From Octopus sinensis (Eukaryota): DNA of 64,000 bases. A program made the translations under genes and the position numbers. Location: the NCBI RefSeq assembly GCF_006345805.1, contig NC_043010.1:372001-436000 (forward strand), written 5' to 3'. The notes under the pieces are model-generated. The model made no database searches. It saw nothing but the letters and a program-made list of their open reading frames with translations, and had not been told where the DNA came from. Positions within the stretch are counted from its first letter, which is position 1. Every line of letters begins with the position of its first letter. This document shows, one piece after another, positions 1 through 24,183 of the stretch.

Positions 1-1441
1 GAGGCTATACTCATGAAGTAATGTAGATAATTAAGTAACATAAACAGATTTCTAAAGTTCATTAAAGTTCTTTAAAGATGATGTACAGTCTTATCACAGA
101 ATTTTAAAAAAGTTTTGATAGCATCACAGAGAAGGTGACCTAATCCATATGAATTTCCAGAGATATGATGAGGGATTATATACTCACAGAAGACAAATTT
201 ATCCATTGTTAATTACAACGAGGTGGGTCTCAATTCCTGCTTATTAGCATTACAGAGAGGGTGAATTAATCCTTTGTATAGATGCACAAATTCCAATGGT
301 GTAGATGTAAATTTCCAGAGAAATGGAGATGAATTTCATATTCACAGGCGATAAATTTTTCAATGGTTGAACACAATGAGGTAGGTATCAATTCTTGTTA
401 TATGATTAGGTGTTTGCCACATTAATCACATTACTGCTATTCACAAGAGGCTGTAGCTATTTAACTCTTAAAGGCTGAAGGGCTTACTAGAGCGGCCAAG
501 AATAGAGGAGGGAATAGAAGAAAAGAGAGAAAATAATGGAGGAGGGAGCAAAAAGGGGGGGGGGAAAGGGGGACTAAAAGAGAAGAGAAAAGGAAACAGA
601 GATAGAAGAAGAAAAAGAAAAAAGAGAAAAGAGAAAGATAGGGAAAGAAGGGAAAAAAGAAAAAGAAAAAAAGAGGTTCTAGTTATACAGAAGAGTTAGT
701 AGACTGCAAGTCTGGTTTTAAAACCAGACTTGCAGTCTACTAACTCTTCTTATAACTAGAACCCTCTTTTTTCTTTTCTTTTTTTCCCTTCTTTCCCTAT
801 TTCTTTCTCTTTCTCTTTTTCTTTTTCTTCTTCTTATTCTCTGTTTCCTTTTCTCTTCTCTTTTAGTCCCCCTTTCCCCCCCCCCCCCCTTTTTGCTCCC
901 TCCTCCATTATTTTCTCTCTTTTCTTCTATTCCCTCCTCTATTCTTGGCCGCTCTAGTAAGCCCTTCAGCCTTTAAAGTTAAATAGCTACAGCCTCTTGT
1001 GAATAGCAGTAATGTGATTAATGTGGCAAACACCTAATCATATAACAAGAATTGATACCTACCTCATTGTGTTCAACCATGAAAAATTTATCGCCTGTGA
1101 ATATGAAATTCATCTCCATTTCTCTGGAAATTTACATCTACACACCATTGGAATTTGTGCATCTATACAAAGGATTAATTCACCCTCCTGTAATGCTAAT
1201 AAGCAGGAATTGAGACCCACCTCGTTGTAATTAACAATGGATAAATTGTCTTCTGTGAGTATATAATCCCTCATCATATCTCTTGGAAATTCATATGGAT
1301 TAGGTCACCTTCTCTGTGATGCTATCAAAACTTTTTTAAAATTCTGTGATATAACTGTACATCATCTTTAAAGAACTTTAATGAACTTAGAAATCTGTTT
1401 ATGTTACTTAATTATCTACATTACTTCATGAGTATAGCCTC
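1..1441. repeat. About 720-bp-arm spacerless inverted repeat (left arm probably continues outside the window)
   Basis: 1-719 is the reverse complement of 720-1441 (gaggctatactcatgaag... / ...cttcatgagtatagcctc), centre ctggtttt|aaaaccag. Differences are mostly small indels. Confidence 0.95.
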
Positions 1442-12084: not shown

Positions 12085-12475
12085 ATCATTATTTGAGGGA
12101 ATATTAATCCTAACTTACAGGGAAAAATTCAATTAAGAAATACTAAATCAAATTTCACACAATATAATATATGTATATTTAAAAATTAGAAAAAAACCAC
12201 CTTTTATCAATTCAAAATGAACAATTAAATTACACCATCTAGAAAATTACATAAATAGAAATATTAAAATTAAAATAACAATAATATACTGATGATTAAG
12301 TAAATTGCAAAAAAATAATAAAAACGTATTATACCAATTATATACGTTTTTATTATTTTTTTGCAATTTACTTAATCTTCAGTATATTATTGTTATTTTA
12401 ATGTTAATATTTCTATTATGTAGTTTTCTAGATGGTGTAATTTAATTGTTCATTTTGAATTGATAAAAGGTGGTT

Positions 12476-12484
<9 letters not shown>
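12085..12484. mobile_element. TA-flanked asymmetric inverted-repeat element (Penelope-like derived, no ribozyme seen)
   Basis: Arms 12185-12329 / 12342-12484; unpaired extension with aacttacagggaaaaat shared with 58363-58587. Confidence 0.7.
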
Positions 12485-12516
<32 letters not shown>

Positions 12517-12548
12517 TATATATACCGTATATATATATATATATATAT

Positions 12549-13027
12549 ATCAACAATCAAGGAACGGCCATAATAGGCCATTCACCCACTAGAAATAACA
12601 GCCAAAGCTTCAACCGCAAATAAAAATCAATTCCGTAAACCAGGAGAAAATTTAAAAAACATTTACCCTGTAATTTCTTATACGATGCACCGTTTCATCT
12701 GCTGTTTAATGGTAAACTAACCTGATTAAATTAAATCAAGAATTGATTTAATTTAATCAGGTTAGTTTACCATTAAACAGCAGATGAAATGGTGCATCGT
12801 ATAAGAAACTACAGGGTAAATGTTTTTTAAATTTTCTCCTGGTTTACGGAATTGATTTTTATTTGCGGTTGAAGCTTTGGCTGTTATTTCTAGTGGTGAA
12901 TGGCCTATTATGGCCGTTCCTTGATTGTTGATGTTGAACTTAAAAATGGTCTATGACTATTTAATTTTTCCCACTAGGCCGCTGGTGGCAAAAAAATTCT
13001 ACAAAATTTTTTGCCACCCTATATTGA

Positions 13028-13030
<3 letters not shown>
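12549..13030. mobile_element. TA-flanked asymmetric inverted-repeat element with the 3' half of a hammerhead in each arm
   Basis: Arms 12549-12739 / 12743-12932 nearly identical; gaaa[c/t]ggtgcatcgta in both; right extension to 13030 with hairpin ggtggcaaaaaaatt/aattttttgccacc. Confidence 0.75.
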
Positions 13031-13092
<62 letters not shown>

Positions 13093-13314
13093 CATATATA
13101 TATATATATATATATACCGTATATATATATATATATATATACAAAATAATAGTTATCGCCATACTAATATGGCATTCTTATAAAAATAAGAAAAAAGCTG
13201 TCCGCTTATTAGCTCCATGAGGCCATCGCCTTAAGTTAGCTATTTGATACACAAACTGTATCCATATAACCTTCGAACAAGGGAGGTCAGTCGCTCCACA
13301 CTACTTGACCGGCA

Positions 13315-13356
13315 GCTACGGACGCGTTTCGGAGTATTGCCCCTTTTCAATGCAGC
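13315..13356 (-). ncRNA. Minimal type I hammerhead, U3-A8 core variant (copy 1, first stem I pair mismatched)
   Basis: Minus strand gctgca-TTGAAAA-gggg caata ctcc-GAAA-cgcg-TC-cgtagc. Confidence 0.65.
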
Positions 13357-13675
13357 GTAGCCAGCCAGTAGGTGTCGCTTCCGACAATCTCTGTTCGATG
13401 GTTTTATTTACCTAGTTTCGGTGGAATACATCCACTTGTTTTCAATAATAGAAATATTAAAATAACTAAGTCTCTCTAAAAGAGAACAGCGGCAGCGTTC
13501 CCGGAAAATAATAGTTATCGCCATACTAATATGGCATTCTTATAAAAATAAGAAAAAAGCTGTCCGCTTATTAGCTCCATGAGGCCATCGCCTTAAGTTA
13601 GCTATTTGATACACAAACTGTATCCATATAACCTTCGAACAAGGGAGGTCAGTCGCTCCACACTACTTGACTGCA

Positions 13676-13717
13676 GCTACAGACGCGTTTCGGAGTATTG
13701 CCCCTTTTCAATGCAGC
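13676..13717 (-). ncRNA. Minimal type I hammerhead, U3-A8 core variant (copy 2, intact)
   Basis: Minus strand gctgca-TTGAAAA-gggg caata ctcc-GAAA-cgcg-TC-tgtagc; 6-bp stem I, palindromic stem III acgcgt, GUC triplet. Confidence 0.75.
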
Positions 13718-14162
13718 GTAGCCAGCCAGTAGGTGTCGCTTCCGACAATCTCTGTTCGATGGTTTTATTTACCTAGTTTCGGTGGAATACATCCACTTGT
13801 TTTCAATAATAGAAATATTAAAATAACTAAGTCTCTCTAAAAGAGAACAGCGGCAGCGTTCCCGGAAAATAATAGTTATCGCCATACTAATATGGCATTC
13901 TTATAAAAATAAGAAAAAAGCTGTCCGCTTATTAGCTGCCGGTCAAGTAGTGTGGAGCGACTGACCTCCCTTGTTCGAAGGTTATATGGATACAGTTTGT
14001 GTATCAAATAGCTAACTTAAGGCGATGGCCTCATGGAGCTAATAAGCGGACAGCTTTTTTCTTATTTTTATAAGAATGCCATATTAGTATGGCGATAACT
14101 ATTATTTTCCGGGAACGCTGCCGCTGTTCTCTTTTAGAGAGACTTAGTTATTTTAATATTTC

Positions 14163-14196
<34 letters not shown>

Positions 14197-14198
14197 CC

Positions 14199-14235
<37 letters not shown>

Positions 14236-14254
14236 ATATATATATATATATACC

Positions 14255-14292
<38 letters not shown>

Positions 14293-14302
14293 TGTATATA
14301 TA

Positions 14303-14337
<35 letters not shown>

Positions 14338-14340
14338 CCG

Positions 14341-14734
14341 TTCAGCAAAATTTAGATTCAAATGAATATGGTGCTTTAGTTAGATGCACCAGAATTTTGT
14401 ATGGTGTTATCCATATAAATCCATGGGATGATTATAATCAAATAAGCAACAAGAATAACTTCGGTAATTTGGTACGATTGTTTCACGCTACATCATTTTA
14501 TTAAATGTTGTAAGTATTACAACAGTTTTAAAATGTTGAGCAATCATCAGCCATTAATAGAGGTTTTCCATTACAATTGATATGAAAATTATGTATTAAT
14601 GGAAAATCTCTATTAATGGCTGATGATTGCTCAACATTTTAAAACTGTTGTAATACTTACAACATTTAATAAAATGATGTAGCGTGAAACGATCATACCA
14701 AATTACCGAAGTTATTCTTGTTGCTTATTTTGAT

Positions 14735-14738
<4 letters not shown>
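14341..14738. mobile_element. TA-flanked asymmetric inverted-repeat element with a hammerhead in each arm
   Basis: Arms about 14433-14573 / 14597-14738; left unpaired extension 14341-14432. Confidence 0.8.
14617..14700 (+). ncRNA. Type I hammerhead with long loop II (mirror copy on - at 14470-14553)
   Basis: tgg-CTGATGA-ttgct...agcgt-GAAA-cgatc[a/g]-TA-cca; the consensus of both arms restores cgatcg, each arm has one CpG-type transition. Confidence 0.7.
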
Positions 14739-15063: not shown

Positions 15064-17775
15064 TTACGTAGAACCTCCTCTAATATGTGGCACTTGGTGA
15101 AGAATGGAGTTTGATATAGCTACTCTCATTTGCACCTCTTGCCGTGAGGTAGGTTCATCTGGGACTCTCGACAAGAAGATGTCCAGCTTTTATTTAAAAA
15201 CCGCTACATCTACTTTGTGCAAGTTCCTCAGACTCTTTGGGAGAATATTAAAAAGCTGTGGGCCCTTGAAACCCAGGCTGTTGCAGAAGCTGGTCCTGAA
15301 GCGTGATGGCATTGCTGGGATCTTTGGCACTATGCAGTGTCGTCCCGTTCAAGCATTGGTGTAGCTTACAATGCCAAAATTTGGCACAATTCCTTCCAGG
15401 ATCTTCCAGACATATATTACTGCATACCTTTCCCGTCTTCTCTCCAGGGAGTAGAGTCTTAGCTGTTTCAACCTTTCCCAGTAGCTGAGCTGTTGCAAAG
15501 AGACGATCTTCTTTGTGAATCTTCTCTGGATTGCTTCAAGGTCCGCTGTTAATTTTACACTGGTGGGTGACCATAGCTGTGAGCAGTAATCCAGGCGACT
15601 GAGGACGAATGTCCGCCAGAGGACCATCATGGTTTCCTTATCTCTGGTTCTGAATGTTCTTAGGATCCACCCAGCCAGTCGTCTGCACTTTGTCGCCATC
15701 CTGGTAATGTGCACTTGGAAAGAGGTATCATCACTAATGTTGATACCCAGGTCCCTCACAGACTTAGGCTCTGGGATTGAAATTCCCTGTGGACCGGTGT
15801 ATCCTGTAAGTTTAATATTCAGCCTTGGATGCTGGTAGCGCAGGGCCTGGAATGTTTCAGCATTAAACTGCATATTATTATCCTCAGCCCATCTGTAGAT
15901 TGAGTCCAACTCCTGCTGCAGGTGTGCAACATCGCTGGGGTTCTGTATTTTCTGCGAGACTTTCGTATTGTCTGCTTAGCTTGCCAGAGTGGCTATCCGG
16001 GCATTTGAGGGCATATCTGAGAGGGCCACTATAAAAAGCAGTGGTCCCAAGACAGTGCCTTGTGGAACACTGCTCACTATTTGTGTGTTCATAGAGGTGG
16101 CTCCATTAACCACTACTGCCTGGCTCCTATCTTTCAGGAAGTCATGCAACCACACTCCAAGTTTTCCAGCTATGCCGAGGTCACGTAGTTTGTGGCATAT
16201 CATACCATGATCCACCTTGTCAAAAGCTTTTGCAAAATCAAGGTAGATTACATCCACATTTGATTTGTTGAGTAACTGCCTCAACATCCAGTCATAATGT
16301 TGTAAGAGCTGGGTCAGGCAGCTCCTACCTGGTCGAAAACCATGCTGGGTATCACTCAGCAAGTTATTTTCCTCAAGGAATGCGATTAGTTTCTTTCTGA
16401 CTATCCGTTCCATGACTTTGCTGATGTGTGAAGTCAGAGAGATAGGCCTATAGTTTTTGGCATCTGCTCTACTTCCCCCTTTATGTATTGGGCATATTAT
16501 TCCCTCCTTCAGGTTGCTTGGCAGTTTGCCATTCTCAAGAAAGCTCTGGAAGAGAATCTTGAGGAGTTTTGCCAGGGCATGCTCACACGCTTTGAGGAGG
16601 ATGGCTGGGAAACCATCTGGACCAGCAGCTGAGTTTGTGTCCACTTCATCTATGGTTAGTAGGACATCTTTTTCGCTAATGTCAATACATTCTATTGTAA
16701 CCGCCTCGCTGGTTATAGGTGAGGCGGCAAAGAAGTCCACTGGTTCGTTCACTTGTTTGTGTTCCAACGGGGTGGTAAAGACACTTTTGAATTGGTCATT
16801 CAGCATCTCACTGATCTTAGTTGGACTGTCTGTGAGGGAGCCATCCTTTTGGAGGAGGGGTCCTATCTTGTAGTGCACTGAGACTGTTTCTTTTGCGTAA
16901 TGAAAGAAGGCCTTTGGGTTTGTTTAATATTTTTTATAACCCAGGCTTCTTTGTCTGCTTTCTCCTTCACATAGGATTGTTGCAGCCTTTTTTCGATCTC
17001 CATCAGCGTTGTTTTTAGGCGGGACGTTTCGCTACTTTTAGGATGTTGGTTGAGGTGATTTGCAACCTTCGTCCTCTCATGAGGATCTTCCTGTCTCTTG
17101 GAATCTTGCTCCTATTTGTTTTGGCCTTGTGCTCTGGGACATATTTCTGGCATACAGCTTGCACAGAAGGCATGAAACATTCTAGTTTCATGTCAATGTC
17201 TGGTGTGGTGAGACATTCCGGCCAGTCCTCTCTGAGGATCTCTTTTTGGATCGATTTCGAATTTGCTTTGTGGAAGTTCAGATTGGAGAGATTTCGGGTG
17301 CTTCCTTTAGGCTGTATGTCTCTGGTTACTTTTGGCCCAAACATAGACAGCTCTATTATGTTGTGATCCGAAACTGATCTTCAAACTTGCCTATGTGATT
17401 TGGGGCATCCGGTGGGCAATATGTATTGCATATGACTATATTATGTTGTCTTATGTATACAATTAAAGTGTCACATACCGAATTTGAGTATGTCATCTAG
17501 ACCTGGGGTGTGAGGTCATCTCGGATGTATACAGCAACTCCACCATGGCTCCTTTCCCGTCTGTCTGTTCGCAGTATGGCATAGTTTGGTATGTGTACTT
17601 CTGCGTCCTCTATATCAGGGCTGAGGTGAGTTTCCACAAGTGCTATGCATAGGGCTTGATTGCATGCAGTAAGATCTCTCAGGAAAGAAATTTTGTTTCT
17701 ATTTTGATGCAACAGGCCCCCAATATTTAGTAAAAGTATTGGGGTGGCGGCTGTGCAGGCGTTAGGGGAGGCCAT
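15064..17775 (-). pseudogene. LINE ORF2 (APE endonuclease plus reverse transcriptase), disrupted
   Basis: LLLNIGGL, ALVETHL, RTDR..SHGGVAVY, YCPP, SDHNII (intervening endonuclease segment deleted); YRPISLTS, QHGFRPGRSCLTQLL, YLDFAKAFDKVDH, VPQGTVLGPLLF; catalytic YADD mutated to *ADN at about 15967-15978; frameshifts. Confidence 0.92.
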
Positions 17776-18674
17776 CCCGTGTCTGTTGACTGTGGTGGTC
17801 TTGCATAGTGGTGGGCAGGGTTCCTTCTCTGTGCTTGGTGTAGCCAGGTTAGCTGCCGGACAATTCTTTGCGCCATGCACAAAAAAGACTCTTGCTCAGC
17901 TGCTGAGTTGCGCAGAACATCTGAGGAGTGCACTTCGTTTTTGAAAGTTTTCCTGGGAGACATTTCTTGTGTTCCCTCAGTAAAGCTCTTCTCTTTGAGT
18001 CCCCTGAAGTTCTGGCGGGGTGTCGGGTGGGCGAACTGGCAGTTTTTGCCGTCCTCACCATGCCAACATTTGCCCCGCAGGTAGAACTTACAGGTTCTTC
18101 GGTGCCTTCCAGATTTCTTCTTTCCTGAAGTGTACTGGGGGGCATTGGATCCTCCAGGGGGTTCCCTGCTGTTTGTGTCGGGGGTTGGGGTTTCAGCTTT
18201 GGTTGTTTTGCCTTTTCCCTCCCTATTTTTGTTTTCGGTCCTTCCTTTTTTCTTCTGTTTTTCTAATTTCTCATTTCTTTGTAGGACTACTGGTACAGGG
18301 GGGCTTCCGGTTTCTGCTCCCTTGGCTCCCCTATCCTTCACTACCTGGTCGTTCACCTGGGTAGGTGATCCATTTTCCTGAGGAACCCCTGGATCACAGA
18401 GACTTCCAGCTTCCTTCTCTTTTTTGTCTTCTTCATCCTCATCAGCCTTGCCACAATAATTTTCAATTATGTTATCCAGTGTTTTGATGTGTGGTCTTAT
18501 AAGCATGTAAGACCGGATAAATTCACCTTTTTCCTGTTCTATCTAGTCAATGGTTCTATGAAATCCATTGTTCTTTAGCTCGACAGTGATGATGTTGTTT
18601 GGCGGATCGCCACTAGCAATCGTCCATGCTCTGAGCAGAAGATTTAACTCTTTCTTTTCCCACTTTGGTGCCAT
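17727..18674 (-). pseudogene. LINE ORF1 (about 315 aa; Myb/SANT-like N-terminus, CCCH zinc finger), one premature stop
   Basis: MAPKWEKKELNLLLRAW...GFHRTID*IEQEK continues in frame into the 259-aa ORF with CKFYLRGKCWHGEDGKNCQFAH; overlaps the ORF2 start. Confidence 0.75.
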
Positions 18675-20900: not shown

Positions 20901-22139
20901 CCCTTTTCTCTTATATATTTATATATAGAAGATTATATCTCTGTATCAGTGCAGTTGGATATGTTGTGAATAGATTTATGCAAAAATAAAAGAATAAAAA
21001 AAATTCTCAAAACCAAGGAAAGCAAAAGGAAGGTTCTTTTATTCCATTAAAAAACAAAATCAAACAAAAAAAAACCTTTCCCTTAACAAATAACATTTAA
21101 ATCACAGTAGGGAATGGCTGCTGTCAAATTCACAAGCAATAATTTCTTGAGAGGAGATGCTTAAGATTAGGAGACATCCCAAAATGTAAAAAAAAGTAAA
21201 TGTAAATAAAAAAAAGAATAAGGAGAGGTAGAGCAAGAACTCTCTCCCTACTCTTTGAAAAAAAAAAAAGAAATATATACAAGGAGCAGAACATAAATGA
21301 AAATCAGAATAAAAGAGAAATATATAAAAACGGAAAGAACAAGAACAAAAACGCCAGAATCCTCTGCAGTTGGAAGGGAGACAATTCTGGCTTAACTTAA
21401 ACGTTTGAAAATTTTAAGTTTTTGTTGGCTTTTTGTTTTTTTTAAACGAAGAAATATCAAAAACGAAAAAATGTCTTCTATCATATTATATTGAATCAAA
21501 GGAAATTCATACATTTCTAATTCTCTTTTAGTTTCCTAAAAAAAGATACGAAAAGAAAAAAGTCTGCCTCTCTCTCACTCTCTCTTCTTCCAAATAATGA
21601 CTGAACAGTTGCTAAGTATATCCTTTAATGTATCTTAGCAAGTGTTTAGCCCATTGCTATGTACAAAGAAGGAAAAAAGTAAAATACAAAACAAACAGGG
21701 ACAAAAACCAAACCAAACCAAAGAAACCAACCCTGATAAATGATTCACGTTGTCTTTCCTACAACGTGTAATACCAACATGGATCAGACAAAAACCTTGC
21801 AATAGTGGCCTTTGTTTTTTTTTGTTTTTTTTCTTTTGGAGTAAGAAGAAAAAGTTTGAAATATTTTTTTAGAAACAAACTTCAATATATTCAGCTGTAA
21901 ACAAATTTATTTCTAAGAAGAAAAAAAAAGAAAGAAAAGTAAAATAAAAAAATAAAATAAAAAGGAATTTGAAGAGGAAAAAAATAATTTCTTATATATT
22001 TCTAATATAAAACTGAAATATATTGTTTCTGAATGAAATATTTGAAATATTTCTATTTTTGTTGAAAAGTACTTGAAATAAATTAGAAGAAAGAATATCA
22101 TCTTGTTTAACTGCAGAGTAAAAACAGTTTGATAACATA

Positions 22140-22144
22140 TACTG

Positions 22145-22193
<49 letters not shown>

Positions 22194-22218
22194 AACTACT
22201 ACTACTACTACTACTACA
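22140..22218. repeat. (ACT)n microsatellite immediately 5' of the start codon
   Basis: Direct reading; ends 3 nt before ATG 22222. Confidence 0.95.
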
Positions 22219-22221
22219 AAT

Positions 22222-24183
22222 ATGTTTCCTGTACAGCCAATCTACTCAATGGGGAAACAGTTTAATTTCGACTTCTATGGCAAACCTGCTTTCCCAGCAA
22301 ATGAACATTTGAAAAGCTATGAAAGTGTTTCCCATTTGTCTGATAAATCATTTGGTTTCGACCTTTGTTCGAAACCACCCAATCACAACAACAACTCTCT
22401 TGCCATGAAAAATCATGGCAAGAAATCTATGAACAACTCTTCTTCAGAGTCAATGTTAACTCATTCTGGCAACAGTGAGTTACCAAACAGGGAGGGCTGT
22501 AACCATATCGGTAATAGCAATGTTGGAAACAAACCCTTTAACTGCACTGTTTGCTGCAAGAGTTTCAGCCAGCGGGCAAATCTCAACAATCATGAACGTG
22601 TGCACACTGGGGAACGGCCGTTCAGTTGCAGTTTCTGTCAAAAGTCATTCAGCCAGAAGGCTAACTTGAAAAACCATGAACGTGTTCACACTGGTGAAAA
22701 GCCTTTCAGGTGTCCATTTTGTGAAAAAACCTTTAGCCAGCGAGCTAACCTAAGTAACCATGAACGCATTCATACTGGCGAGAAGCCGTTTGTATGTCAT
22801 GTGTGTCAAAAAGCATTCAGCCAGAAGGCAAACTTGAATAATCATGAACGTGTTCACAGTGGCGAGAAACCATTTAGCTGTACCTTTTGTGGTAAGGGCT
22901 TCTCTCAACGCGCTAACCTTATTTCTCACGAGCGAATTCATACAGGCGAGAAACCATTTGTGTGTGTTGTGTGTCGGAAAGCTTTCAGTCAAAAAGCAAA
23001 CTTGCATAATCACGAACGTATTCACACTGGTGAGAAACCCTTTAATTGTCCATTCTGTGGCAAAGCTTTCAGTCAAAAGGCGAACCTTGTCAACCATGAA
23101 CGCATCCACACTGGCGAGAAACCATATCATTGCGAGACGTGTCACAAAGCTTTCAGTCAAAAGGCCAATTTACATAACCATCAACGTATTCACACTGGAG
23201 AGAAACCATTTCATTGCGATGTGTGCCAAAAATCTTTCAGTCAGCAAGTCAATTTGAATAACCACGAGCGTATACACACAGGGGAAAGGCCTTTCAAATG
23301 TAAGATATGTGAGAAAACATTCTCTCAAAAAGCCAATCTGCACAATCATGAACGCATTCACACTGGTGAGAAACATGCTAGCTGTGATTCATGTCCAAAA
23401 CTGTATGGTCCTCATGGGAAACATAAGGATCCCTGTTCCTCTCATGGACCAGGAAAGCCATTTGATTGTTCATACTGCGACAAGGACATGACTGCAAGAA
23501 ACAGTATGAACCCTCACCAACCCCTATCACCAAATGTAAAACCATTTGTCTGTCCATACTGTGGCAAAGGATTTTGTGAAAAATCTAATTTGAATATCCA
23601 TGAGAATTATTGTCCTCAGAAGAGACTTTCTCTCAAGCATGCCTTAAACAACAGTAGCAGCAGTACCATGACTACCACCACCACTACCAACAACAACAAC
23701 AACAATACCGGTGGTAGTAGCAACGGTAACAACAACAGCAACAATAACAGGAATGGTGAGAATTTCCATGGACAACAAGGCCACAACAATGATGCGACGC
23801 CACATCATACAGATAAACAGATGAGTTGTGATGGATACAAAGCGAAGAATTACTCACCTCGAACAGGCACCATGAAAGATGGTGGTAAAGACACGGTGTC
23901 AGCCCAGAACCCATCTGTTGGCAGGAGCGATGGAGGTTCCTCCCTCAGTCAGTCACAAATGGGAAGAATTCCGCCATTGAACATACCATCGTCCAGAATA
24001 GGTTCCTCGTCGTGTTTCCCCCAGATGACAGCCGGATGGGAAAACAACTACAGCTGGTCCAGAACATTCCCTATGGCGCCACCACGTTGGGGCCAGAACT
24101 GGGCAAATGCAGCCGGTATGCCTCCATTGCAGGCACCGTTAACTTCTGGAATCCGATCACACAAGCCTCGTGAACAGAACTAG
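22222..24183 (+). CDS. C2H2 zinc-finger protein, 653 aa, uninterrupted ORF: 10 tandem canonical fingers, 2 degenerate fingers, 1 C2HC finger, Asn/Thr-rich C-terminus
   Basis: F-x-C-x2-C-x3-F-x5-L-x2-H-x3-H repeats with TGEKP linkers at 22537-23361; first in-frame ATG at 22222 (the track start at 22129 is TTG). Confidence 0.95.
   Translation: MFPVQPIYSMGKQFNFDFYGKPAFPANEHLKSYESVSHLSDKSFGFDLCSKPPNHNNNSLAMKNHGKKSMNNSSSESMLTHSGNSELPNREGCNHIGNSNVGNKPFNCTVCCKSFSQRANLNNHERVHTGERPFSCSFCQKSFSQKANLKNHERVHTGEKPFRCPFCEKTFSQRANLSNHERIHTGEKPFVCHVCQKAFSQKANLNNHERVHSGEKPFSCTFCGKGFSQRANLISHERIHTGEKPFVCVVCRKAFSQKANLHNHERIHTGEKPFNCPFCGKAFSQKANLVNHERIHTGEKPYHCETCHKAFSQKANLHNHQRIHTGEKPFHCDVCQKSFSQQVNLNNHERIHTGERPFKCKICEKTFSQKANLHNHERIHTGEKHASCDSCPKLYGPHGKHKDPCSSHGPGKPFDCSYCDKDMTARNSMNPHQPLSPNVKPFVCPYCGKGFCEKSNLNIHENYCPQKRLSLKHALNNSSSSTMTTTTTTNNNNNNTGGSSNGNNNSNNNRNGENFHGQQGHNNDATPHHTDKQMSCDGYKAKNYSPRTGTMKDGGKDTVSAQNPSVGRSDGGSSLSQSQMGRIPPLNIPSSRIGSSSCFPQMTAGWENNYSWSRTFPMAPPRWGQNWANAAGMPPLQAPLTSGIRSHKPREQN

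What the first reader, a model, noticed from the sequence alone, without database searches (positions are those of the whole stretch)
13143..13937. 361-nt tandem monomers, each with a U3-A8 hammerhead: candidate circular-RNA retrozyme
Seen: 2.2 near-identical non-coding units; predicted minus-strand cleavage sites (13682/13681 and 13321/13320) are exactly 361 nt apart; the core TTGAAAA preserves the 3-8 pair. Established: animal non-LTR retrozymes are tandem hammerhead repeats of a few hundred nt that give linear and circular monomers, and palindromic stem III allows dimeric folding of adjacent ribozymes. Inference: a cephalopod retrozyme family with a non-canonical core that canonical searches would miss.
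Basis: partly seen in the sequence, partly recalled or inferred. Interest (0 to 1): 0.82.

Follow-up and report, generated by a model that had tools for sequence, protein, structure and literature searches.

The report
Hammerhead retrozyme inserted Penelope-style
This is a young copy of a very abundant non-coding repeat that carries a predicted self-cutting RNA motif with a rare but already described core swap, and its back-to-back arms in a TA microsatellite suggest it was pasted in by a Penelope-type retrotransposon enzyme; the kind is known, and neither cutting nor RNA circles are shown.

Summary
Public runs show a very high-copy family in head-to-tail form, U3/A8 without a listed variant, and a recurrent end joined to TA-rich DNA. 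The unit also appears in three probable RNA runs, which cannot show circles. The anatomy (head-to-head arms, uneven ends, TA target) is that of Penelope-like element (PLE) insertions. Best reading: a non-LTR retrozyme mobilised by a PLE enzyme. U3-A8 cores are published (Schistosoma PLEs; Perreault 2011), as are mollusc retrozyme circles of 350-390 nt and the retrozyme-PLE link (2026 preprint). This scan noted similar octopus families before, on other DNA and including U3-A8 ones. One extra clue: the inverted arm and both private changes sit at the cut site, hinting that cleaved RNA was copied. New member of a known kind; interest 0.3.

The parts
13088..13144 (.). Left copy of target-site duplication, (TA)n-CCG-(TA)n tract (57 nt)
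   Evidence: same as 14168-14234 except for five TA units
13143..13504 (-). Unit 1 (362 nt); its 3' end abuts (TA)n at 13143
13315..13356 (-). Type I hammerhead, unit 1; U3-A8 core; cut 13321^13320; A.C mismatch at pair 2.1-1.1 (private or rare change)
   Evidence: no such variant at >=5%
13505..13865 (-). Unit 2 (361 nt)
13676..13717 (-). Type I hammerhead, unit 2, intact: stem I 6 bp, U3 13711, A8 13706, stem II 4 bp, GAAA, palindromic stem III, cut 13682^13681
13771..13832 (-). Three-way junction with a second UUGAAAA...GAAA look-alike (no stem I; A15.1 varies in the family). The family's preferred 3' end lies at 13806-13809 inside it (same motif at 13410-13471)
13866..13937 (-). Partial third unit (72 nt), inner end of the long arm
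13933..14165 (+). Inverted arm (233 nt). It starts 2-7 nt after the cut site (5-nt TAGCT overlap with the long arm) and ends in (TA)n, 57 nt beyond the end used by the long arm
14168..14234 (.). Right copy of target-site duplication (67 nt)

Best explanation
The locus is one young insertion of a high-copy, protein-free repeat whose 361-362-nt unit carries a type I hammerhead motif with a U3-A8 core, and it was likely pasted into a TA microsatellite by the enzyme of a Penelope-like retrotransposon, i.e. it is most likely a non-LTR retrozyme. Shown: tandem units, head-to-head inverted arm, uneven outer ends, TA target with long duplication, family abundance and head-to-tail junction. Inferred: multimeric transcripts fold two palindromic stem III halves into a double hammerhead, cut to unit length and are ligated by a host ligase (as shown for mussel and axolotl retrozymes). 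Also inferred: a PLE endonuclease nicks both strands of (TA)n, and its RT primes two cDNAs from internal start sites on the RNA. One cDNA reads 2.2 times round the unit (circle, or jumps between cleaved ends), the other stops at the cut site, and the two join through a 5-nt microhomology. This particular copy would cut well at one site only.
For: Anatomy. Family: 4125, 2351, 1727 and 1096 contigs laid in four deep runs; one 392-nt looped contig in a skim run; unit junction bridged in 8 of 8 runs. An end at 13445-13448 (=13806-13809) next to TA or AT-rich DNA is listed in 5 of 8 runs (34 contigs in X1, 14 in X2; lists cut at the best-supported rows). Of 22 variant places listed, 2 fall in the ribozyme and both keep pairing (13694 G.U to G-C, majority; 13714 G.U to A-U). 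No U3 or A8 variant is listed in 8 runs. A subfamily swaps the stem III palindrome CGCG for CATG (X1, X5, X10). Both units share the minority 13694 letter (<=10% of depth), so they come from one template. Monomer fold z = -5.9 linear, -5.6 circular. The MFE of a 471-nt precursor is the double hammerhead. PLE signature (inverted 5'-truncated copy, tail at one end, TA bias): PMC8557442, PMC3846280. Both-strand cleavage and two internal RT starts: PMC11167929. TA-targeting PLEs are listed for Octopus.
Against: No cleavage assay, and none of the 20 holder runs is on record as RNA. The three RNA-guess runs are contigs of modest depth and cannot show strand, ends or circles. The double hammerhead vanishes (P about 0) when the whole 795-nt array or the 1023-nt insertion is folded. 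The plus strand folds as well as the minus (z -5.5). Only 1 of 9 predicted Xenopus retrozyme dimers cleaved in vitro. One contig in X17 has a broken core. CATG can arise from CGCG by CpG decay. The second outer end (13143/13505) is not among the listed loose ends (nearest: one contig at 13512). No partner PLE was identified and no genome was available.
Confidence: 0.8

Rival explanations
1. The unit is the pseudo-LTR of an autonomous Penelope-like element, and this locus is a 5'-truncated insertion of it.
For: Same insertion anatomy. U3-A8 minimal hammerheads were first reported in Schistosoma Cercyon PLEs. In the RNA-guess runs 19-48% of what was laid runs on into unlike sequence, including one 1898-nt contig leaving at 13725.
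Against: Two cut sites lie 361 nt apart with no ORF between them. The skim run gives a closed loop of unit length, and the share running on unlike is 0 in the five DNA-type or unlabelled runs. The listed loose ends are variants of the unit or AT-rich flanks. Contigs in repeats are short, so a rare ORF-linked form cannot be excluded.
Confidence: 0.11
2. A solo copy was inserted and then duplicated locally at the DNA level (satellite-like growth), with the ribozyme a passenger and no RNA monomer or circle involved.
For: Both units share one minority letter, which local duplication also explains. Li et al. 2026 propose local amplification. HHR cleavage was dispensable for PLE insertion in vitro.
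Against: The array, the inverted arm and one target duplication form a single event. The inverted arm's inner end and both private changes sit within 11 nt of the cut site (post hoc). The stems are kept across the family.
Confidence: 0.07
3. The fold-back is an assembly or library artefact at a TA tract.
For: The inverted arm is 100% identical to unit 1 over 176 nt, and four fold-backs crowd one TA tract.
Against: There is a target-site duplication. Neighbouring fold-backs have arms 93-98% alike. Opposite-strand joints appear in other runs. The structure is typical of PLEs.
Confidence: 0.02

Closest known systems
Metazoan non-LTR retrozymes (Cervera & de la Pena 2020, PMC7229834, parts 2-4 of 6 read, supplement unreadable; Li, Clavereau & Pollet 2026, 10.64898/2026.07.22.740005, parts 1-3 of 5 read, supplements closed)
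   Same: ORF-less tandem units of a few hundred nt (mussel 350-390 nt), one type I hammerhead per unit, GC under 50%, self-paired monomer, weak palindromic helix III suited to dimer cleavage (axolotl), long TSD, proposed PLE mobilisation.
   Different: U3-A8 core (missed by Rfam). The inverted head-to-head arm and TA targeting are not described for retrozymes in the parts I read. No cephalopod family was found in print. Cleavage and circles are untested here.
Insertions and pLTR hammerheads of EN+ Penelope-like elements (PMC4209133 parts 1-2 of 4 and supplement passages; PMC8557442 passages and supplement rows; PMC3846280 passages; PMC11167929 parts 1-2 of 4)
   Same: Inverted 5'-truncated arm, one-sided tail, TA preference, palindrome at the inverted junction, type I hammerhead with palindromic helix III; U3-A8 variant with about 1,300 hits in Schistosoma mansoni.
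   Different: No ORF. The tail is 57 nt, against 30-40. The hammerhead has canonical 6-bp stem I and 4-bp stem II without the bulged base of PLE min-HHRs, which is the retrozyme-type architecture.
Natural U3-A8 hammerheads (Perreault et al. 2011, PMC3088659, passages)
   Same: C3-G8 covaried to U3-A8, seen in several natural ribozymes and reported active in vitro.
   Different: Here it is the majority form of a very high-copy animal repeat.

Membership tests
non-LTR retrozyme | Head-to-tail units of about 150-450 nt without ORF, LTR, PBS or PPT | tested here: met
   361-362 nt, longest frame 59 aa; junction bridged in 8 of 8 runs; PBS/PPT not searched
non-LTR retrozyme | A type I hammerhead in each unit | tested here: met
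   Both full units carry it; unit 1 has a mismatch beside the cut, absent from the family majority. By the strict 'two complete motifs' rule of Li et al. this single locus is borderline.
non-LTR retrozyme | Multi-copy, dispersed family | tested here: met
   Thousands of contigs per deep run, assembles in a 4-Mb skim, several distinct flanks; no copy number obtained
non-LTR retrozyme | Highly self-paired monomer | tested here: met
   z -5.9 linear, -5.6 circular; the opposite strand gives -5.5
non-LTR retrozyme | Transcribed | tested here: inconclusive
   Present in three runs guessed to be RNA, as contigs only
non-LTR retrozyme | Self-cleavage to monomers and circular RNA | not testable with these tools
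   Only folding predictions, which depend on precursor ends
PLE-type insertion | Inverted 5'-truncated arm joined head-to-head | tested here: met
   13933-14165
PLE-type insertion | One-sided tail from two RT start sites | tested here: inconclusive
   Ends differ by 57 nt here; one end recurs in 5 of 8 runs, the other is not among the listed rows
PLE-type insertion | AT-rich or (TA)n target | tested here: met
autonomous PLE | RT plus GIY-YIG ORF between pLTRs | tested here: not met
   No ORF in the insertion; elsewhere in the genome not testable
hammerhead ribozyme | Core 3-9 with 3-8 pair, GAAA, NUH, three stems with closing pairs | tested here: met
   Unit 2; stem III is 2 bp as monomer, 6 bp as dimer; Rfam gives no match

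The most novel reading that the evidence does not exclude
The insertion records hammerhead cutting in vivo. The inverted arm stops 2-7 nt from the cut site, and the only two private changes in the array lie at +1 and +9 to +11 after it, as expected if a Penelope RT ran off, or jumped across, ribozyme-cut or ligated RNA ends. If this holds across copies, a U3-A8 hammerhead defines the template that PLE enzymes copy, whereas the one in vitro PLE study found cleavage dispensable.
Probability: 0.3. Interest if true: 0.58.

Novelty: new member of a known kind. Interest (0 to 1): 0.3.

Why it matters
It adds a young, very abundant retrozyme family whose core escapes Rfam, so ribozyme counts in such genomes are underestimates. 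Its insertion shape supports the still mostly inferred idea that PLE enzymes move animal retrozymes. Mapping arm junctions against the cut site across many copies would directly test whether cleaved or circular RNA is the template. The class, the core variant and the PLE link are all published, so this is a good test system rather than a new phenomenon.

Tried and rejected
No genome is held, so no copy number, flank census or partner search was possible. Rfam gave no hammerhead hit at E<=10 on 12500-14600 or 13290-13830, and nothing at gathering score in the window; the miRNA hits are generic hairpins of the neighbouring fold-back. The metagenome scan for the ribozyme motif found 0. No RNA holder was listed on record, which is no evidence either way. 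Zinc-finger searches to place the host gave nothing for residues 1-110 and only generic animal zinc fingers for 100-500. The second UUGAAAA...GAAA motif was rejected as a ribozyme: by eye it has no stem I, stem II lacks its closing pair, and A15.1 varies in about 13-32% of depth. A scrambled (SGC) hammerhead built from the two motifs was rejected by eye; that paper was not read. The depth profile was not used as evidence, because contig depth is flat per contig. A likeness of 13770-13790 to an snRNA-type promoter element is recalled only and untested (searches gave nothing useful). Lunse et al. (PMC5785218) is not held. The supplement of PMC7229834 was unreadable, file 1 of PMC4209133 was not searched, and the preprint's supplements are closed; any of these may list a cephalopod or U3-A8 retrozyme.

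Full report
Observation. The array at 13143-13937 is real: period 361, 2.2 copies, 99%, made of 362-, 361- and 72-nt pieces with three differences. On the minus strand each full unit holds a type I hammerhead. In unit 2 it is complete: 6-bp stem I, UUGAAAA core (U3 at 13711, A8 at 13706), 4-bp stem II, GAAA, palindromic ACGCGU and a GUC cut at 13682^13681. A strict descriptor finds this one hit in the window and none in 100 resampled windows. Unit 1 has C for U just after the cut (13320), so its first stem I pair is A.C. Rfam finds no hammerhead. The longest open frame is 59 aa.

The element continues as a 233-nt inverted arm, 13933-14165, 100% identical to unit 1 over 176 nt. Read as RNA, the two arms are joined 5' end to 5' end through a 5-nt TAGCT overlap, and both 3' ends point outward into (TA)n. 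The outer ends differ by 57 nt on the unit. The flanks 13088-13144 and 14168-14234 are the same tract apart from five TA units, a long target-site duplication. Three unrelated fold-back elements share the same TA tract. An inverted truncated copy, a one-sided tail and TA bias are the described marks of endonuclease-bearing Penelope-like elements (PMC8557442; PMC3846280). A purified PLE protein cuts both strands of AT-rich DNA and starts cDNA at two internal RNA sites, which makes the tail (PMC11167929).

The family. No genome is held. Twenty runs from 10 studies hold at least half of the sampled words. I laid 8 of the 24 listed runs. Four deep runs gave 4125, 2351, 1727 and 1096 contigs, and a 4-Mb skim gave one 392-nt contig looping on itself. 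The head-to-tail junction is bridged in 8 of 8 runs. An end at 13445-13448 (=13806-13809) beside TA or AT-rich DNA is listed in 5 of 8 runs, the same end as the inverted arm. The other end (13143/13505) is not among the listed rows, which were cut (269 and 82 rows not shown). Of 22 variant places, two lie in the ribozyme, and both keep pairing. At 13694 the majority (90-100% of depth) makes stem II fully Watson-Crick; both window units carry the minority letter and so share one template. No U3 or A8 variant is listed in any run, though depth is uneven there and one contig in X17 has a broken core. A subfamily has CATG for CGCG in the palindrome, which CpG decay could also produce. Three runs guessed to be RNA hold the unit at modest depth (20, 12 and 31 contigs); as contigs they cannot show strand, ends or circles.

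Folding. The cut-to-cut monomer folds far better than shuffles (z -5.9 linear; -5.6 circular), but so does the opposite strand (-5.5). The unconstrained MFE of a 471-nt precursor spanning both ribozymes is the double hammerhead, with a shared 6-bp stem III (P 0.83-0.99). This depends on the ends. It reached P>=0.9 in 10 of 25 precursor windows, and at most 0.03 in the 10 windows starting at 13865 or beyond. It is absent when the whole array or insertion is folded. In the circle, stem I has P about 0.2, so the active fold is disfavoured. Dimer cleavage is therefore plausible for short or nascent transcripts only, and this locus would cut well only at 13682.

Mechanism. Shown: anatomy, abundance, conservation. 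Inferred from mussel and axolotl retrozymes (PMC7229834): multimer transcription, dimer cleavage, host ligation, circles. Inferred from PLE biochemistry: a PLE protein nicks (TA)n on both strands and primes two cDNAs, one running 2.2 times round the unit and one stopping early, joined by microhomology. An alternative for head-to-head joints is self-priming on an antisense template. A post hoc clue: the short arm starts 2-7 nt after the cut site (about 2% by chance), and the two private changes in the array lie at +1 and +9 to +11 (arithmetic; both under about 2-5% in the family). This fits copying of cleaved or ligated RNA but rests on one locus. Against: cleavage was dispensable for PLE insertion in vitro, and 8 of 9 predicted Xenopus dimers did not cleave.

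Comparison and novelty. Non-LTR retrozymes are defined as such tandem units, with circles shown in a mollusc at 350-390 nt. A 2026 preprint links them to PLE pLTRs. U3-A8 is reported from Schistosoma PLEs, about 1,300 hits, and from other natural ribozymes. I found no cephalopod retrozyme in print (searches; 235 hammerheads were counted in the giant squid genome), but unseen supplements may hold one. This scan noted many similar families in this and other genomes, including two-armed and U3-A8 ones; none matched this sequence. These notes are unchecked and are not independent support. The host is an animal; octopus rests on those notes. Verdict: new member of a known kind, retrozyme moved by PLE machinery (0.8), interest 0.3.

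Noticed in passing
window 12186-12483, 12549-13030, 14433-14738: Three further unrelated fold-back elements nest in the same TA tract (arms 94%, 98% and 93% alike). The second has a one-sided extension of about 98 nt. The tract looks like a repeated target for PLE-type insertion.
   Followed up: partly
window about 14605-14700 (+): The right arm of the last fold-back holds CUGAUGA, a long stem II, GAAA and a near-palindromic stem III with only a 2-bp stem I; a hammerhead-like PLE end that failed my descriptor. A 74%-alike piece lies at 1504-1588.
   Followed up: partly
window 12254-12270 and 12401-12419: 17-19 nt shared with the retrozyme's preferred 3' end (13445-13463); possibly a shared signal or chance in AT-rich DNA (E 0.005-0.02).
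   Followed up: no
window 13771-13832 and 13410-13471 (-): Second hammerhead look-alike in each unit, decayed, coinciding with the preferred 3' end; may be a relic or an RT-binding structure.
   Followed up: partly
run X17, record 22: A 1898-nt contig follows the unit over 13630-13725 and then runs on into about 1.8 kb of unlike sequence upstream of the ribozyme; it could be host RNA, an inserted element or a coding partner. Sequence not visible.
   Followed up: no
window 15349-18542 (-): Broken LINE with RT-like frames next to the cluster.
   Followed up: no
window 22111-24183 (+): Open frame of 690 aa with a run of C2H2 zinc fingers; best listed hits about 50% identical, no close relative listed.
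   Followed up: partly
window 55-1388: Nested inverted repeats (96-100% arms), another fold-back structure.
   Followed up: no
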